Source: Escherichia phage vB_EcoM_P8 | Sequence record: PV390659.2 | DNA length: 64,000 nucleotides | Direction: 5' to 3' (one strand) | Part shown: positions 3,193 to 16,035 of the stretch, in pieces | How positions within the stretch are numbered: the first letter of the stretch is position 1 | Layout of the letters: each line of letters begins with the position of its first letter | Made by a program: the position numbers and the translations under genes | Notes under the pieces: generated by a model | Databases searched by the model: none | Told to the model about the DNA's origin: nothing | Seen by the model: only the letters and a program-made list of their open reading frames with translations

Positions 3193-3236
3193 TAGCTCGT
3201 TTATTTAAACGACGACTTAAAAGCCGCGAGAATTAT

Positions 3237-3244
3237 TATAAATA
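3237..3244 (+). promoter_or_regulatory. late promoter (TATAAATA) for soc
   Basis: Exact TATAAATA about 30 nt upstream of soc ATG. Confidence 0.7.
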
Positions 3245-3274
3245 ATCATGTAATTTAAATAAAAGGAGAATTAC

Positions 3275-3520
3275 ATGGCTAGTACTCGCGGTTATGTTAA
3301 TATCAAAACGTTTGAGCAGAAATTAGATGGAAATAAGAAAATTGAAGGAAAGGAAATTTCTGTAGCTTTCCCTCTTTATTCTGACGTTCACAAAATTTCT
3401 GGCGCTCATTACCAGACATTCCCTTCAGAAAAAGCAGCATATACTACTGTATATGAAGAAAATCAACGTACTGAATGGATTGCCGCAAACGAAGATTTGT
3501 GGAAAGTAACTGGTGGTTAA
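3275..3520 (+). CDS. soc: small outer capsid protein Soc
   Basis: 80 aa MASTRGYVNIKTFEQKLDGNKKIEGKEISVAFPLYSDVHK... matches T4 Soc; late promoter TATAAATA upstream. Confidence 0.95.
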   Translation: MASTRGYVNIKTFEQKLDGNKKIEGKEISVAFPLYSDVHKISGAHYQTFPSEKAAYTTVYEENQRTEWIAANEDLWKVTGG

Positions 3521-3528
3521 TAATTCAA

Positions 3529-3552
3529 GGACTCCTTCGGGAGTCCTTTTTT
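3529..3552 (+). terminator. rho-independent terminator after soc
   Basis: GGACTCC-TTCG-GGAGTCC followed by TTTTTT. Confidence 0.75.
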
Positions 3553-3562
3553 CATTTTACTG

Positions 3563-3592
3563 GTTTACTTTCCAAAATGAGTATGGTATAAT
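3563..3592 (+). promoter_or_regulatory. T4-type early promoter
   Basis: GTTTAC, 18-nt spacer, TATAAT. Confidence 0.55.
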
Positions 3593-3618
3593 AAAATTAT
3601 CTTATAGAGGAGAGCACT

Positions 3619-3831
3619 ATGTTAAATCGCTGGATTAAACCAAATGAAGACCTTCAGAAGGTTCTTGATAAAGCTATCTCTGATAAATGGGGTATGAAAA
3701 GCTGGGATTGTGATATCGTCACGCATTCATTCATGATGCATGCAGATGGTTCAGTCGAGTTCAATGCTGAAATGCGATACACTGACTGGGGTGGATTTCA
3801 AAGAGTCGAATTTCAAAGAGGCTTTTTGTAA
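3619..3831 (+). CDS. hypothetical protein (soc.1 position)
   Basis: 70 aa ORF with SD AGAGGAGAG; downstream of early promoter. Confidence 0.6.
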   Translation: MLNRWIKPNEDLQKVLDKAISDKWGMKSWDCDIVTHSFMMHADGSVEFNAEMRYTDWGGFQRVEFQRGFL

Positions 3832-9462: not shown

Positions 9463-9708
9463 GTGGAAATAACTAAAGACCAGTTTTATCTACTTCAAGA
9501 TAAAGTGAGCGAAATTTATGAAATAGCTTATAGTAAAAATCGCAAAAACGTGAAAATTGAATCGGGAAAGTTAATGCTTCAATTGGAAGAAATTGAACGA
9601 GATTTGATTGCATTAGAATTCTTTTGCGGTGAAGTGAAAACTGTTACAATCAGTGATTATGTTTTAGGTGAAATTAGCCATCTTTATAAGGCGGTTATTA
9701 ATGATTGA
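9463..9708 (+). CDS. hypothetical protein
   Basis: 81 aa, GTG start with GAGGA SD. Confidence 0.4.
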   Translation: MEITKDQFYLLQDKVSEIYEIAYSKNRKNVKIESGKLMLQLEEIERDLIALEFFCGEVKTVTISDYVLGEISHLYKAVIND

Positions 9709-9943
9709 ATTAAGTTTGCATCAGTTTAAATCTCTTATGGCAAATGTTAAAGCTGTCATTCAAGAAAATTCAGGACCTGATAATGTTACTATTCGCGAAA
9801 AAGCTTTAAAGATAGTATACAGTCTTGAAGAGATACAAAAAGATATTGAATCTATGGCAAAATTTATTGATGAGCCCATTAATAAAGTTTATATCCAAGA
9901 TTATACTGTAGGTCAAATTCGTGATTTAGCGAGGAAAATTTAA
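9701..9943 (+). CDS. hypothetical protein
   Basis: 80 aa from ATG 9701 (ATGATTGA overlap). Confidence 0.45.
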   Translation: MIELSLHQFKSLMANVKAVIQENSGPDNVTIREKALKIVYSLEEIQKDIESMAKFIDEPINKVYIQDYTVGQIRDLARKI

Positions 9944-10632: not shown

Positions 10633-10662
10633 GTTTACTTCCTCGGTTAGTTGTGGTATTAT
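10633..10662 (+). promoter_or_regulatory. T4-type early promoter
   Basis: GTTTAC, 18-nt spacer, TATTAT; leader closely resembles the one at 1219-1270. Confidence 0.55.
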
Positions 10663-10689: not shown

Positions 10690-11190
10690 ATGAAAATTTA
10701 TCGTGTTGAATCATCTTTTAGTATTCTTAATTATGAAGATGCTATAACAATACGTCGAAATCTTTGTGTTCAAATAACGCCGTACAGGAGTATAATAGAT
10801 TCATGGAGCGAAGAGTGGTTATTACACGTAGGTTATGATAGACCTAATTTTATGCATCATAGCGATAATAATAAAAGAATTCCTTTACCACACGAAGATA
10901 AACTATTAGTTAAAAACGCTAATATAGTAATTAATACTAAGTTCAAGAAAGATTATGTTGGAGTAGAATATCATATTCCAGGATGGTTTATAGCTCTTTA
11001 TCATTTTGCTTTCGCTAGTGAATATGATATGATGAGATGGTTCACACGAGAAGAACGTGAAGAATTATCTTCTAAAGGATTTTATCTTGCTGTATATGAA
11101 GTTCCTGAAGATGAAGTTATCATTGGCGGGCACCAAGTAATGTTCCGCAAATCGCATGCTGAACTCGTAGATTTTATTGAAATGAGATAA
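10690..11190 (+). CDS. hypothetical protein
   Basis: ATG 10690 with SD GAGGATAAT after early promoter; upstream track start is TTG. Confidence 0.55.
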   Translation: MKIYRVESSFSILNYEDAITIRRNLCVQITPYRSIIDSWSEEWLLHVGYDRPNFMHHSDNNKRIPLPHEDKLLVKNANIVINTKFKKDYVGVEYHIPGWFIALYHFAFASEYDMMRWFTREEREELSSKGFYLAVYEVPEDEVIIGGHQVMFRKSHAELVDFIEMR

Positions 11191-11192
11191 AT

Positions 11193-11735
11193 ATGAAATT
11201 TAATTATAATCCTGAATACACACCAAACCCGGTAGCTAAACTGATTGATTTTGATGTTGTAAGCACTTATGTATGCCCTGTTAAACCACTGGAAATTAAG
11301 GAACCTACTATGACTACCGCTATTGAAATCGGCAAAACCTACAAATTGGTTGAACCTGAAATTAAAACTAAGGCCTTGATTTCTGGTTATAAAACTCTGA
11401 CTGATGTTTTTGGCGAAGGCGAATTTATTGTTGAAGAATTTGCCAAAAGTGGCTGGTTTGCCAAATCTTACGTCATTCACGGTCGTCGTTTAGACAATAA
11501 CAAAATAGAGAAAATCCTGGTTTATGAAGCAGAGTTCATCCTGTTCCAAGAAGTTGAAGAACAAGACCCTACCGACCTTTTAACTCGTGCTGTAGCTATC
11601 AAGACCCCATTTATTTCGGTCTATGGTTGGGTAACAGACCAATGGATTGAAGATGGCGTTGAACTTCTGAATGTTGTGCATGCAGGCGATTTTAGTGTAG
11701 TACCTCGTAGTGCGGTGGTAGCTATTTTAAATTAA
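11193..11735 (+). CDS. hypothetical protein, paralog A of tandem pair
   Basis: 180 aa; C-terminal TDQWIEDGVELLNVVHAG shared with next gene. Confidence 0.6.
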   Translation: MKFNYNPEYTPNPVAKLIDFDVVSTYVCPVKPLEIKEPTMTTAIEIGKTYKLVEPEIKTKALISGYKTLTDVFGEGEFIVEEFAKSGWFAKSYVIHGRRLDNNKIEKILVYEAEFILFQEVEEQDPTDLLTRAVAIKTPFISVYGWVTDQWIEDGVELLNVVHAGDFSVVPRSAVVAILN

Positions 11736-11737
11736 TA

Positions 11738-11767
11738 GTTTACAAACTCTTGGGATCAGAGTATAAT
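11738..11767 (+). promoter_or_regulatory. T4-type early promoter
   Basis: GTTTAC, 18-nt spacer, TATAAT. Confidence 0.55.
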
Positions 11768-11811
11768 GGTCCCGTGGAGTATAAAATCTTTTTAACAAGT
11801 GAGAGATAACT

Positions 11812-12309
11812 ATGATTATTAATATTGGTGAAATTGCTCGTGTATCTGATAAATCCCGTTCTAAAGCAGCAGGAAAATTGGTCGAAATTGTAAGCATTCA
11901 GCTTAAACATGGCGTTAAAGATGAAGATTCTGAAGTAAAAGTGCGTATCATTCCTAAAGATGGAAAGTCTAAACCTCAGTTTGGCTATGTTCGTGCGAAA
12001 TTTCTTGAGTCTGCTTTTTTGAAAGCTGTTCCTGCTAAAGGAATTGAAACGATTGATACTTCGCATGTAGGCGTAGACTTTAAGTGGAAACTCGGTCAAG
12101 CTATTAAGTTCGTCGCTCCTTATGAATTTGAATTTACCGAAGACGAAGAAGGGGTTGTTCAAAAACGTCGTACTCGCGCTATGTGTGCATACATTACCGA
12201 TCAATGGGTAGAAGATGGCGTTAAGTTGTACAACGCGGTATTTTTAGGAACATACAAAGCCATTCCTGAAAGTTGGATTAAACACTATAGCAAAGCCCGC
12301 TGTGCATAA
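11812..12309 (+). CDS. hypothetical protein, paralog B of tandem pair
   Basis: 165 aa; C-terminal ITDQWVEDGVKLYNAVFLG. Confidence 0.6.
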   Translation: MIINIGEIARVSDKSRSKAAGKLVEIVSIQLKHGVKDEDSEVKVRIIPKDGKSKPQFGYVRAKFLESAFLKAVPAKGIETIDTSHVGVDFKWKLGQAIKFVAPYEFEFTEDEEGVVQKRRTRAMCAYITDQWVEDGVKLYNAVFLGTYKAIPESWIKHYSKARCA

Positions 12310-12406
12310 AGTTTAAAATTTTTTCATAAAACTATATACATCAGTAGTTGATTATGGTACTATATCAATATCAACTACTGATACAGAAAATAACTTGGAG
12401 AATAAA

Positions 12407-12676
12407 ATGGAAAACTTAATTATCATCGAACAATCTTTCAACGATTATGGTATGGCTTATGGTTATCGTGCGATAATGGAAGATTCTCGTGGATGTGTTA
12501 TCGATATTGCTGAATGTAAAGATTTACTGCAGCTTTTGAAGATTGTTCGCAAAAATTGGGATTGTGAAAACATTAAAGTTCGTGTTGTAACGGAAGAAGA
12601 AACTGTTTTTCATGATGTAAAATTTGCCAAAGGTGCTGCTACTCTTCTGAAACGCATCACTCCAATGTTCAATTAA
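12407..12676 (+). CDS. hypothetical protein
   Basis: 89 aa from ATG 12407 with GGAG SD. Confidence 0.5.
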   Translation: MENLIIIEQSFNDYGMAYGYRAIMEDSRGCVIDIAECKDLLQLLKIVRKNWDCENIKVRVVTEEETVFHDVKFAKGAATLLKRITPMFN

Positions 12677-13511: not shown

Positions 13512-13883
13512 ATGTTTAAAATCGGTAAGAAATATCGTGTTCGCGAAGGCAAAGAAAAGAAATATCTACTTTCTTCTATTTATAGGAATAGTTCTATTAA
13601 TACTGTAATATCTACAAGCGAATTTATCGTTGAAGATATGAAAGGTCATAATGTTACAATGATTAGTACAGCATCTGGAAATGATGGAAAAATTCTTCAT
13701 AGTTTTCAGAGTAATGTTCTAATTTATGATGAAGAATTTGACTTCTTCGAAGAAGTTACAGAAGATTTTGATTTTGAATGCACTATCACTATGAAATCTG
13801 GCGACCCTCTTTCTTTTACAGTTAAAGATGAAAGAAGTCGCTTGAGAATTATTAGTCTTCTTCAAGCCATTAAATTTGAGTGA
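13512..13883 (+). CDS. hypothetical protein
   Basis: 123 aa ORF. Confidence 0.55.
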   Translation: MFKIGKKYRVREGKEKKYLLSSIYRNSSINTVISTSEFIVEDMKGHNVTMISTASGNDGKILHSFQSNVLIYDEEFDFFEEVTEDFDFECTITMKSGDPLSFTVKDERSRLRIISLLQAIKFE

Positions 13884-14170: not shown

Positions 14171-14217
14171 TATGATTACCGGAGTATAATATTCCCAAAA
14201 CCAAACGAGGATAAGTG

Positions 14218-16035
14218 ATGATTAAGAATGAAATTAAAATTCTGAGCGATATTGAACATATCAAAAAGCGTAGCGGCATGTACATTGGTTCTTCTGCTAA
14301 TGAAATGCATGAGCGCTTTCTGTTTGGTAAATGGGAAAGTGTTCAGTATGTACCTGGTCTTGTTAAGCTTATTGATGAAATTATCGATAACTCGGTAGAT
14401 GAAGGTATTCGTACTAAGTTTAAATTCGCAAATAAAATTAATGTTACTATCAAAAACAATCAAGTAACAGTTGAAGATAACGGTCGTGGTATTCCACAGG
14501 CGATGGTTAAAACACCTACTGGTGAAGAAATTCCTGGTCCAGTTGCTGCATGGACTATTCCAAAAGCAGGTGGTAACTTTGGTGATGATAAAGAACGCGT
14601 CACTGGCGGTATGAACGGTGTTGGTTCTAGTTTAACTAACATTTTTTCTGTGATGTTTGTCGGTGAAACTGGCGACGGTCAAAATAATATTGTGGTTCGT
14701 TGTTCAAATGGCATGGAAAATAAATCATGGGAAACTATTCCTGGAAAATGGAAAGGAACTCGCGTTACTTTCATTCCTGATTTTATGTCATTTGAAACTA
14801 ATGAGCTATCTCAAGTTTATCTTGACATTACACTAGATCGTCTCCAGACACTTGCAGTAGTTTATCCTGATATTCAATTTACCTTTAATGGTAAAAAGGT
14901 TCAGGGTAATTTTAAGAAATATGCACGCCAATATGATGAACATGCTATCGTTCAAGAACAAGAAAACTGTTCTATTGCGGTTGGTCGTTCACCCGATGGT
15001 TTTCGTCAATTAACATACGTCAATAACATTCATACTAAGAATGGTGGCCATCACATTGACTGTGTTATGGATGATATTTGTGAAGACCTTATTCCACAAA
15101 TCAAACGTAAATTTAAAATTGACGTAACTAAAGCACGTGTTAAAGAATGTTTGACTATCGTTATGTTTGTTCGTGATATGAAAAACATGCGATTTGATTC
15201 TCAAACTAAAGAGCGTCTGACTTCTCCATTTGGTGAAATCCGTAGTCATATTCAGCTTGATGCTAAAAAGATTTCACGTGCTATTTTAAATAATGAAGCA
15301 ATTTTAATGCCAATCATTGAAGCTGCCTTGGCTCGTAAATTGGCGGCAGAAAAAGCAGCAGAAACTAAAGCAGCTAAAAAGGCTTCTAAAGCTAAGGTTC
15401 ATAAACATATTAAAGCGAATCTTTGTGGTAAAGATGCTGACACTACTCTTTTCTTGACTGAGGGTGATTCCGCTATCGGATATCTTATTGATGTTCGTGA
15501 TAAAGAACTTCATGGTGGTTATCCATTACGTGGTAAAGTTCTCAACAGTTGGGGTATGTCATATGCTGATATGCTTAAAAACAAAGAACTGTTTGATATT
15601 TGCGCAATCACTGGATTAGTTCTTGGTGAAAAAGCCGAAAACTTGAATTATCATAATATTGCTATTATGACTGACGCTGACCACGATGGTCTAGGAAGCA
15701 TTTATCCTTCTCTGCTCGGATTTTTCAGTAATTGGCCAGAACTGTTTGAACAAGGAAGAATTCGCTTTGTCAAAACTCCTGTAATCATCGCTCAGGTCGG
15801 TAAAAAACAAGAATGGTTTTATACAGTCGCTGAATATGAGAGTGCTAAAGATGCTCTACCTAAACATAGCATCCGTTATATTAAGGGACTTGGCTCTTTG
15901 GAAAAATCTGAATATCGTGAGATGATTCAAAACCCAGTATATGATGTTGTTAAACTTCCTGAGAACTGGAAAGAGCTTTTTGAAATGCTTATGGGAGATA
16001 ATGCTGATCTTCGTAAAGAATGGATGAGCCAGTAG
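14218..16035 (+). CDS. 39: DNA topoisomerase II large subunit, uninterrupted 39+60 fusion type
   Basis: 605 aa; GHKL ATPase N-terminus MIKNEIKILSDIEH..., Toprim C-terminus ...IAIMTDADHDG...; single ORF. Confidence 0.9.
   Translation: MIKNEIKILSDIEHIKKRSGMYIGSSANEMHERFLFGKWESVQYVPGLVKLIDEIIDNSVDEGIRTKFKFANKINVTIKNNQVTVEDNGRGIPQAMVKTPTGEEIPGPVAAWTIPKAGGNFGDDKERVTGGMNGVGSSLTNIFSVMFVGETGDGQNNIVVRCSNGMENKSWETIPGKWKGTRVTFIPDFMSFETNELSQVYLDITLDRLQTLAVVYPDIQFTFNGKKVQGNFKKYARQYDEHAIVQEQENCSIAVGRSPDGFRQLTYVNNIHTKNGGHHIDCVMDDICEDLIPQIKRKFKIDVTKARVKECLTIVMFVRDMKNMRFDSQTKERLTSPFGEIRSHIQLDAKKISRAILNNEAILMPIIEAALARKLAAEKAAETKAAKKASKAKVHKHIKANLCGKDADTTLFLTEGDSAIGYLIDVRDKELHGGYPLRGKVLNSWGMSYADMLKNKELFDICAITGLVLGEKAENLNYHNIAIMTDADHDGLGSIYPSLLGFFSNWPELFEQGRIRFVKTPVIIAQVGKKQEWFYTVAEYESAKDALPKHSIRYIKGLGSLEKSEYREMIQNPVYDVVKLPENWKELFEMLMGDNADLRKEWMSQ

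What the first reader, a model, noticed from the sequence alone, without database searches (positions are those of the whole stretch)
11193..12309. Tandem paralogous genes sharing a C-terminal TDQW(I/V)EDGV(E/K)L module
Two adjacent co-directional ORFs (180 and 165 aa), each with its own early promoter, share a conserved C-terminal block but differ in their N-terminal halves. This suggests duplication and divergence in an accessory early region.
Basis: seen in the sequence. Interest (0 to 1): 0.4.

Follow-up and report, generated by a model that had tools for sequence, protein, structure and literature searches.

The report
Known T4-type motB.1–motB paralogue pair
The two neighbouring genes are the already described early genes motB.1 and motB of a T4-like coliphage, which share a small C-terminal beta-barrel domain but carry different N-terminal domains, so the finding is real but ordinary.

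Summary
ORF1 (11193-11735, 180 aa) and ORF2 (11812-12309, 165 aa) are adjacent, co-directional and share a C-terminal block (TDQWIEDGVEL / TDQWVEDGVKL; BLASTP 21/56 identical, E 5e-9). The window is a Tequatrovirus, 100% identical to phage vB_EcoM_BMB16. ORF2 is MotB (PF17613, E 3e-98). ORF1 is the MotB.1 orthologue.

The shared C-terminal domain, the different N-terminal domains and a duplication origin were published by Son et al. 2021 (PMC7827196). Kim et al. 2025 (PMC12152347) described the LSm-like N-terminal domain of MotB.1. The finding is therefore already known.

Corrections and additions:
- Only motB has its own early promoter. ORF1 starts 2 nt after the motB.2 stop.
- The N-terminal halves are different domains: KOW-like and basic in MotB, GoF-type LSm-like and acidic in ORF1.
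- AlphaFold2 models show the shared module as a five-stranded SH3/Tudor-like barrel.
- The module occurs in 1 to 3 tandem copies in 25 related loci and only in small phage proteins.

Side finding: the T4 reference sequence (NC_000866.4) has one extra G that truncates MotB.1 inside this motif. Thirteen other T4-type records encode an intact 143-aa protein.

The parts
10634..10662 (+). Early-promoter-like site (GTTTACT-17-TATTAT, TG before the -10) upstream of motB.2. It is the likely promoter for a motB.2-ORF1 transcript.
   Evidence: Consensus scan; sequence read. Function is inferred, not shown.
10690..11190 (+). motB.2 orthologue (166 aa, phrog_1106). Context gene whose stop codon lies 2 nt before the ORF1 ATG.
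11193..11735 (+). ORF1, a MotB.1-type gene (180 aa, phrog_2333), acidic (pI 4.8, net charge -9).
   Evidence: In the family alignment it is 46% identical to the intact 143-aa T4 MotB.1 (P0241). It sits between motB.2 and motB as in T4. dN/dS is 0.21-0.27.
11193..11312 (+). ORF1 residues 1-40: predicted disordered N-terminal extension. It carries a conserved linker motif, LIDFDVVSTYVCPVKPL (residues 17-33, 11241-11291).
   Evidence: pLDDT below 50. The motif recurs between domains in other family members. Residues 1-14 align to the start of an extra domain in the 245-250-aa variants, which suggests an internal deletion. dN/dS is 0.27.
11313..11564 (+). ORF1 residues 41-124: GoF-type LSm-like/SH3-like beta-barrel with one helix.
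   Evidence: AF2 pLDDT 82-93, with strands 49-52, 78-85, 92-99, 105-111, 118-121 and helix 60-73. phrog_622 (the GoF family) E 1e-4. The reciprocal hit of phrog_2333 on the 39.1-like ORF is E 8e-4. Kim et al. 2025.
11565..11732 (+). ORF1 residues 125-180: shared C-terminal module (DPTDLL lead-in plus a five-stranded small barrel). The most conserved core is residues 145-177 (11625-11723).
   Evidence: AF2 strands 133-137, 142-153, 156-163, 166-171, 175-177. Pfam motB hit on 143-175. Invariant residues G145, W146, D149, W151, E153, G155, N160, P171 and others.
11739..11767 (+). motB early promoter, TTTACA-17-TATAAT.
   Evidence: 11 of 12 consensus matches. The intergenic region is identical to T4 apart from one base in the spacer. 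Activity is inferred from the sequence and from MotB being a T4 early protein (PMC6070864).
11812..12309 (+). ORF2 = motB (165 aa), basic (pI 9.2, net charge +6).
   Evidence: PF17613 E 3e-98 over the full length. Close to T4 MotB. Charges.
11812..12015 (+). MotB residues 1-68: KOW-like basic beta-barrel (net charge +5).
12070..12306 (+). MotB residues 87-165: shared C-terminal module with a long beta1-beta2 hairpin insertion. The most conserved core is residues 126-158 (12187-12285).
   Evidence: AF2 strands 97-112, 115-134, 137-144, 147-152, 156-159. Invariant residues D130, W132, E134, G136, N141 and others.

Best explanation
The two ORFs are the T4-type early genes motB.1 (ORF1) and motB (ORF2). 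Both proteins are built from two small beta-barrels joined by a flexible linker.

The shared block is the beta2-beta5 core of a C-terminal five-stranded SH3/Tudor-like barrel of about 50-65 aa. At the sequence level this barrel is found only in small proteins of T4-like phages.

The pair most likely arose by tandem duplication of a KOW-barrel + C-terminal-barrel gene. In one copy the N-terminal barrel was then replaced by a GoF-type LSm-like barrel. Related genes lie a few hundred bases downstream (goF, 39.1-like).

Function:
- Shown by others for T4 MotB: it is an abundant basic early protein that binds DNA tightly and without sequence specificity, co-purifies with H-NS/StpA, changes H-NS footprints, relieves H-NS repression and doubles burst size.
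- Inferred here: the basic KOW-like domain supplies most of the DNA affinity. The conserved, net-acidic C-terminal barrel is a protein-contact module, for self-association, MotB-MotB.1 association or a shared host partner such as H-NS/StpA. The acidic MotB.1-type protein brings an LSm-like (RNA- or protein-binding) domain to the same partner rather than binding DNA itself.

Identity and evolutionary origin are well supported. The division of labour between the domains is inference.
For: Identity:
- The window is 100% identical to a Tequatrovirus, with gene order dexA-motB.2-ORF1-motB-cef-goF as in T4.
- PF17613 matches ORF2 over its full length at E 3e-98 and ORF1 over the C-terminus only.
- PHROG assignments agree.

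Homology of the module:
- BLASTP E 5e-9.
- Both AF2 models show the same strand order: beta1, long beta2, beta3, beta4, a short helical turn (3 residues in the DSSP string), beta5.
- Published by Son et al. 2021.

Restricted distribution: a profile of the module finds only 28 representatives among 1.84 billion proteins. Twenty-six are phage proteins of 43-251 aa and two are repeat-protein chance matches. There is no PDB or other Pfam match.

Tandem origin: in 25 IMG/VR loci the copies are always adjacent and on the same strand. Eight loci have a single KOW+CTD gene, 14 have LSm+CTD followed by KOW+CTD, and 3 have a further KOW+CTD gene.

N-terminal replacement: the ORF1 middle domain matches the GoF family phrog_622, and the neighbouring 39.1-like ORF matches phrog_2333. 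Hybrids of a KOW domain with the MotB.1-type C-terminal domain exist.

Both genes are functional: dN/dS is 0.18-0.27 in all structured domains, and there are hundreds of intact orthologues.

Charge split: ORF1 pI 4.8 with C-terminal domain net -4; MotB pI 9.2 with KOW domain net +5.

MotB biochemistry: PMC6070864 and PMC7827196.
Against: - No experiment or complex prediction here shows what the C-terminal barrel binds.
- Son et al. 2021 assigned the MotB C-terminal domain to an OB-fold and suggested that either domain could bind DNA.
- The MotB C-terminal domain is near neutral (net +1) because of its basic hairpin insertion (QKRRTR), so in MotB it could still contact DNA.
- The direction of the N-terminal replacement (KOW ancestral) rests on only 8 single-copy loci and has no rooted tree.
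- Deleting motB.1 from T4 gave no phenotype (Kim et al. 2025).
Confidence: 0.85

Rival explanations
1. The shared block is a short chance or convergent motif, not common ancestry.
For: The strongly conserved stretch is only about 33 residues. The same profile also picks up two unrelated repeat proteins with GYATEQWV or NNQWVQ.G.DIDGE hairpin repeats (P0302, P0304).
Against: Pairwise E 5e-9. Reciprocal family-profile hits at E 1e-15 and 4e-8. Same C-terminal position, same predicted strand order across about 50-65 residues. Intermediate sequences link the two subtypes. Adjacency is conserved in 17 of 25 loci.
Confidence: 0.01
2. The module is shared mainly through recombination or domain shuffling among early-region genes (a mobile C-terminal cassette), rather than one old duplication followed by vertical descent.
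For: All combinations occur: KOW + MotB-type CTD, KOW + MotB.1-type CTD, one or two LSm barrels + MotB.1-type CTD, and an extra N-terminal domain + LSm + CTD. Deletion fusions occur at microhomology, as in P0301, which joins the motB.2 start to EDGVELL. The two genes share a 12-nt identical run, GAAGATGGCGTT (sequence).
Against: The C-terminal subtypes (VELLNVVH..PRS versus VKLYN.VF..PES) stay distinct within each phage and track gene position. This argues against ongoing homogenisation between the two copies. Shuffling and duplication are not mutually exclusive.
Confidence: 0.3
3. The shared C-terminal module is an OB-fold, cold-shock-like nucleic-acid-binding domain, as proposed from HHpred in 2021. 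On this view it is the DNA-binding element common to both proteins.
Confidence: 0.15
4. ORF1 is a decaying duplicate of motB on its way to loss.
For: The T4 reference annotates a truncated MotB.1. One metagenomic contig (L020) is split by a frameshift. Short remnants exist: P0301, and the 29-aa RB69 peptide. Deleting T4 motB.1 has no laboratory phenotype.
Against: dN/dS is 0.21-0.27 in every part of ORF1. Hundreds of intact orthologues exist. The T4 truncation is confined to a single reference record.
Confidence: 0.03

Closest known systems
T4 MotB (Pfam PF17613, 'modifier of transcription'; Patterson-West et al. 2018, Son et al. 2021)
   Same: ORF2 matches it over the full length (E 3e-98). 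It has the same position, the same early promoter, the same KOW-like N-terminal domain plus conserved C-terminal domain, and the same basic pI.
   Different: It is 165 aa rather than 162 aa, with a few substitutions and a 3-residue difference in the beta1-beta2 hairpin of the C-terminal domain. There is nothing functionally distinctive.
T4 MotB.1 (Son et al. 2021 categories 2-4; Kim et al. 2025 LSm-like family with GoF and Frd.2)
   Same: ORF1 occupies the same locus between motB.2 and motB. It has an LSm-like barrel followed by DPTDLL and the MotB-like C-terminal domain. That domain is nearly identical to the one in intact T4 MotB.1.
   Different: ORF1 is 180 aa with a 40-residue disordered N-terminal extension that carries a conserved linker motif. 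Its LSm-like domain is strongly diverged from that of T4 (46% identity overall). The T4 reference form (119 aa) lacks most of the C-terminal domain because of a 1-nt insertion found only in that record.
Tandem small beta-barrel proteins (Spt5/NusG KOW repeats, 53BP1 tandem Tudor, EF-P domain I)
   Different: There is no detectable sequence relationship. Functional sites, such as the aromatic cage of Tudor domains or the NusG KOW contacts, were not tested. The resemblance is at the level of fold only.

Membership tests
MotB family (Pfam PF17613) | Full-length match to the family profile above the curated threshold | tested here: met
   ORF2 scores 326.7 bits against a cut-off of 25, residues 1-163 on profile positions 1-160 of 162. 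ORF1 matches only profile positions 121-153 (29.6 bits), so ORF1 belongs at the level of the C-terminal module, not the whole family architecture.
MotB family (Pfam PF17613) | N-terminal KOW-like barrel | tested here: met
MotB family (Pfam PF17613) | Basic protein that binds DNA without sequence specificity and associates with H-NS/StpA | not testable with these tools
   Only charge could be computed: ORF2 pI 9.2, ORF1 pI 4.8. The biochemistry is known for T4 MotB only.
MotB.1 / GoF / Frd.2 LSm-like fold family (Kim et al. 2025) | Bent five-stranded antiparallel beta-sheet barrel in the N-terminal part, joined by a linker to a variable C-terminal domain | tested here: met
   In the ORF1 AF2 model, residues 41-124 have pLDDT 82-93 with five strands and one helix. 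In ORF1 the barrel follows a 40-residue disordered extension.
MotB.1 / GoF / Frd.2 LSm-like fold family (Kim et al. 2025) | Sequence-profile link to GoF-type proteins | tested here: met
   ORF1 residues 44-125 hit phrog_622 at E 1.1e-4. phrog_622 is the best family for the window's goF (E 2e-39) and for the 39.1-like ORF (E 2e-28). The latter also hits phrog_2333 at E 8e-4. The links are weak but reciprocal.
MotB.1 / GoF / Frd.2 LSm-like fold family (Kim et al. 2025) | Orthology to T4 motB.1 (synteny plus alignment) | tested here: met
   ORF1 lies between motB.2 and motB. It aligns with intact T4 MotB.1 (P0241) across the LSm and C-terminal domains.
OB-fold, cold-shock-like (published assignment for the MotB C-terminal domain) | Five-stranded barrel with OB strand order and a helix between beta3 and beta4 | tested here: inconclusive
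Tudor / 'Royal family' readers | Aromatic cage that binds a methylated or cationic ligand | not tested
   Conserved aromatic residues are present: W146, W151 and F167 in ORF1; Y127, W132 and Y148 in MotB. Their spatial clustering could not be examined.

The most novel reading that the evidence does not exclude
The conserved acidic C-terminal barrel is a common docking or dimerisation module. On this reading the acidic MotB.1-type protein pairs with MotB, or competes with it for the same host partner (for example H-NS/StpA filaments), and modulates its toxic DNA-coating activity. The published lack of activity or phenotype for T4 MotB.1 would then partly reflect use of the reference 119-aa form, which lacks this module.
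Probability: 0.15. Interest if true: 0.5.

Novelty: already known. Interest (0 to 1): 0.2.

Why it matters
The paralogy itself adds nothing new. It was published in 2021 for T4 and more than 100 homologues.

Three by-products are useful to T4 specialists:
- The reference T4 annotation of motB.1 (119 aa, 13.8 kDa) is truncated by a single extra G inside the family's most conserved motif. Every other T4-type record examined encodes 143 aa. Kim et al. 2025 took their motB.1 sequences from NC_000866.4 and report a 13.8 kDa protein, so their plasmid experiments may have lacked the C-terminal module.
- The module is more likely an SH3/Tudor-like barrel than an OB-fold. It is acidic, which shifts the hypothesis from DNA binding towards protein contact.
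- The family is a clear small example of tandem duplication combined with N-terminal domain swapping in the phage early accessory region.

Tried and rejected
- Sequence searches of the module against the PDB and of each isolated domain against Pfam at E up to 10 found nothing beyond PF17613.
- The two long hits of the module profile (P0302 829 aa, P0304 496 aa) were inspected. They are repeat proteins that match only the short T[DE]QWV hairpin motif, so I rejected them as homologues.
- Antisense ORFs at 11082-11480 and 11740-12204 on the minus strand were considered. I dismissed them as mechanical ORFs, because the + strand genes show purifying selection and have family matches.
- The promoter-like hit at 11182-11210 was considered as an ORF1 promoter. 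I rejected it because its -10 element lies downstream of the ORF1 ATG.
- Domain-level structural superposition of the two C-terminal barrels, and an AlphaFold complex of MotB with MotB.1 or H-NS, could not be done.
- The first two Python calls failed because the T4 locus file had not yet synchronised. The comparison was done with DNA alignment instead.

Full report
**1. What is there**

The region holds two + strand ORFs at exactly the coordinates given: 11193-11735 (180 aa) and 11812-12309 (165 aa). Megablast shows that the window is a Tequatrovirus. It is 100% identical over 2.1 kb to Escherichia phage vB_EcoM_BMB16 and 94-97% identical to hundreds of T4-like phages.

The gene order is dda, dexA.2, dexA.1, dexA, motB.2, ORF1, ORF2, a 90-aa ORF, cef, goF, 39.2, a 39.1-like ORF, and gene 39. 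This is the T4 order read on the opposite strand.

- ORF2 is MotB. Pfam PF17613 matches over the full length at E 3e-98.
- ORF1 sits where T4 has motB.1. It belongs to phrog_2333 at E 9e-85.

**2. Is the shared block real?**

Yes.
- ORF1 residues 148-158 read TDQWIEDGVEL and ORF2 residues 129-139 read TDQWVEDGVKL.
- BLASTP aligns ORF1 118-173 with ORF2 108-154: 21/56 identical, E 5e-9 for the single comparison.
- The Pfam motB profile hits ORF1 143-175 at 29.6 bits, above the curated cut-off of 25.
- The PHROG families cross-hit reciprocally, at E 1.2e-15 and 4e-8.

**3.

Only motB has its own promoter. It is TTTACA-17-TATAAT at 11739-11767, with 11 of 12 consensus matches, and it is identical in T4.

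The ORF1 ATG lies 2 nt after the motB.2 stop codon. The only nearby promoter-like match (11182-11210) ends inside ORF1. The nearest plausible promoter is GTTTACT-17-TATTAT at 10634-10662, upstream of motB.2. ORF1 is therefore probably co-transcribed with motB.2.

**4. Anatomy**

AlphaFold2 with family alignments gave the following.
- ORF1: disordered residues 1-40. An LSm-like barrel at 41-124, with five strands, one helix and pLDDT 82-93. A small barrel at 133-177 with strands 133-137, 142-153, 156-163, 166-171, a short helical turn, then 175-177.
- MotB: a KOW-like barrel at 1-67, a disordered linker at 69-86, and a barrel at 97-159. This barrel has the same strand order as in ORF1 but a much longer beta1-beta2 hairpin.

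The two N-terminal halves are different domains.
- The ORF1 barrel matches the GoF family phrog_622 at E 1e-4. This is also the best family for the window's goF and 39.1-like ORFs, and the 39.1-like ORF reciprocally hits phrog_2333.
- Charges are opposite. ORF1 has pI 4.8 and net charge -9, with its C-terminal domain at -4. MotB has pI 9.2 and net charge +6, with its KOW domain at +5.

**5. Distribution and evolution**

A profile of the module searched against 1.84 billion representative proteins found only 28 hits.
- Twenty-six are small phage proteins of 43-251 aa.
- Two are repeat proteins that match only the short hairpin motif.
- There is no match in the PDB or in any other Pfam family.

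Architectures seen in the family:
- KOW + MotB-type C-terminal domain.
- KOW + MotB.1-type C-terminal domain.
- One or two LSm barrels + C-terminal domain.
- An extra N-terminal domain + LSm + C-terminal domain.

In 25 IMG/VR loci, genes carrying the module are always tandem and co-directional.
- 8 loci have a single KOW+CTD gene.
- 14 loci have LSm+CTD followed by KOW+CTD.
- 3 loci have an additional KOW+CTD gene.

This fits tandem duplication of a KOW+CTD ancestor, with replacement of the N-terminal barrel in one copy. Ongoing shuffling is a partial alternative.

Pooled pairwise dN/dS against the window is 0.18-0.27 for every structured domain of both genes, and 0.27 for the ORF1 N-terminal extension. 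Both genes are therefore maintained by selection.

**6. Function**

Known for T4 MotB, from the literature (PMC6070864 and PMC7827196):
- It binds modified and unmodified DNA tightly and without sequence specificity.
- It is toxic when overexpressed.
- It co-purifies with H-NS and StpA in the presence of DNA.
- It alters H-NS footprints and up-regulates H-NS-repressed host genes.
- It doubles burst size.
- A motB knockdown does not significantly change the T4 transcriptome.

For T4 MotB.1, Kim et al. 2025 report an LSm-like N-terminal domain and no phenotype on deletion.

My inference follows from the charge split and the acidic, invariant D-W-E-G-N surface of the module. The KOW domain probably carries most of the DNA affinity. 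The shared barrel is probably a protein-contact module, either for self-association or MotB-MotB.1 association, or for a shared host partner. This is not shown. The basic hairpin (QKRRTR) in the MotB C-terminal domain leaves room for DNA contact there too.

**7. Comparison with what is known**

Son et al. 2021 state that T4 MotB and MotB.1 share a conserved C-terminal domain and have different N-terminal domains. They suggest that one gene may have arisen by duplication of the other. They also report that 40 other phages carry both genes, and that RB69 has two motB copies, one motB.1 and a 29-aa remnant. The finding is therefore already known.

**8. Side finding**

In the T4 reference (NC_000866.4 = AF158101.6), motB.1 is annotated as 119 aa and ends ...TDQWIGRWR*. 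Alignment shows one extra G (TGGATTGGAAGATGG against TGGATTGAAGATGG) inside the conserved motif. The rest of the C-terminal domain is intact but out of frame.

- tblastn with the repaired 143-aa protein finds it in one piece at 100% identity in 13 other records: T4, T4T, RB55 and RB59. Only the reference record, deposited under two accessions, is split.
- In the protein collection, the intact form occurs on 256 contigs and the 119-aa form on 2.
- Kim et al. 2025 took their motB.1 sequences from NC_000866.4 and report a 13.8 kDa protein. Their plasmid-borne MotB.1 may therefore have lacked the module.
- Neither of the two papers that mention motB.1 in the searchable library notes a frameshift.

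**9. Verdict**

This is a real, correctly located and statistically solid observation of an already published paralogue pair. The promoter claim is wrong for ORF1. 'Divergence' of the N-terminal halves is better described as domain replacement. Interest is low. The reference-sequence error and the fold and charge arguments are modest additions.

Noticed in passing
L002 (T4 NC_000866.4) 3222-3651, minus strand; corresponds to window 11625-11735: The T4 reference motB.1 carries one extra G inside the TDQWIEDGV motif, which truncates the protein to 119 aa. Thirteen other T4, T4T, RB55 and RB59 records encode an intact 143-aa protein, which also occurs on 256 contigs in the protein collection against 2 for the truncated form. 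Kim et al. 2025 used NC_000866.4 for their motB.1 sequences and report a 13.8 kDa protein.
   Followed up: yes
window 11241-11291 (ORF1 residues 17-33); also P0260, P0268, P0269, P0291, P0295, P0297, P0300, P0303: A short conserved linker motif, roughly [LI]-D-[FMT]-D-[VI]-x-[SC]-[TM]-Y-x-x-P-[VI]-K-P, recurs between the N- and C-terminal barrels of many family members and at the N-terminus of ORF1. A related EVESHDGYVCESNDIRGV insert occurs in long MotB forms. It may be a short linear interaction motif.
   Followed up: partly
window 11193-11234 compared with P0083, P0091, P0105 (245-250 aa); L015, L017, L018: Some orthologues carry an extra N-terminal domain of about 68 aa, or a second LSm-like barrel. 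ORF1 residues 1-14 align to the start of that extra domain, which suggests that the window's gene arose by an internal deletion.
   Followed up: partly
window 11298-11312: An internal AAGGA Shine-Dalgarno-like sequence lies 7 nt before the ATG of Met40. This is exactly where the LSm-like barrel begins and where T4 MotB.1 starts. Phage PP01 annotates a 141-aa form. A shorter isoform by internal initiation is possible.
   Followed up: no
P0301 (43 aa) and L020 4655-5171: Remnant or disrupted forms exist. One is a 43-aa ORF that fuses the motB.2 start (MKIYRVESSFSIL) to the module at YEDGVELL. Another is a metagenomic contig in which the LSm and C-terminal parts are split by a frameshift.
   Followed up: partly
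window 12340-12382: A perfect 13-bp inverted repeat with an inner 5-bp stem lies just downstream of motB. As RNA it folds at -23.6 kcal/mol, z -4.6 against shuffles. No U-tract follows it. It is 100% conserved in T4. Its function is unknown; an RNA processing or stability element is one possibility.
   Followed up: partly
window 12404-12676: A 90-aa ORF (phrog_3720) lies between motB and cef. T4 keeps its ribosome-binding site, its first codons and its last ~50 nt, but has lost the interior to a deletion.
   Followed up: partly
window 13512-13883: The 39.1-position ORF is 123 aa here, against 65 aa annotated in T4. It belongs to the GoF family phrog_622 (E 2e-28). The early region therefore holds at least three GoF-type LSm-like barrels: ORF1, goF and this ORF.
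   Followed up: partly
window 9463-9943: dexA.2 and dexA.1 (81 and 80 aa) both match phrog_5263 and the two halves of phrog_1700. They are another tandem paralogue pair just upstream.
   Followed up: no
window 14215-16035: The topoisomerase large-subunit gene 39 is a single 606-aa ORF here. The T4 reference annotates a 516-aa gene 39 and notes an insertion that splits the subunit.
   Followed up: no
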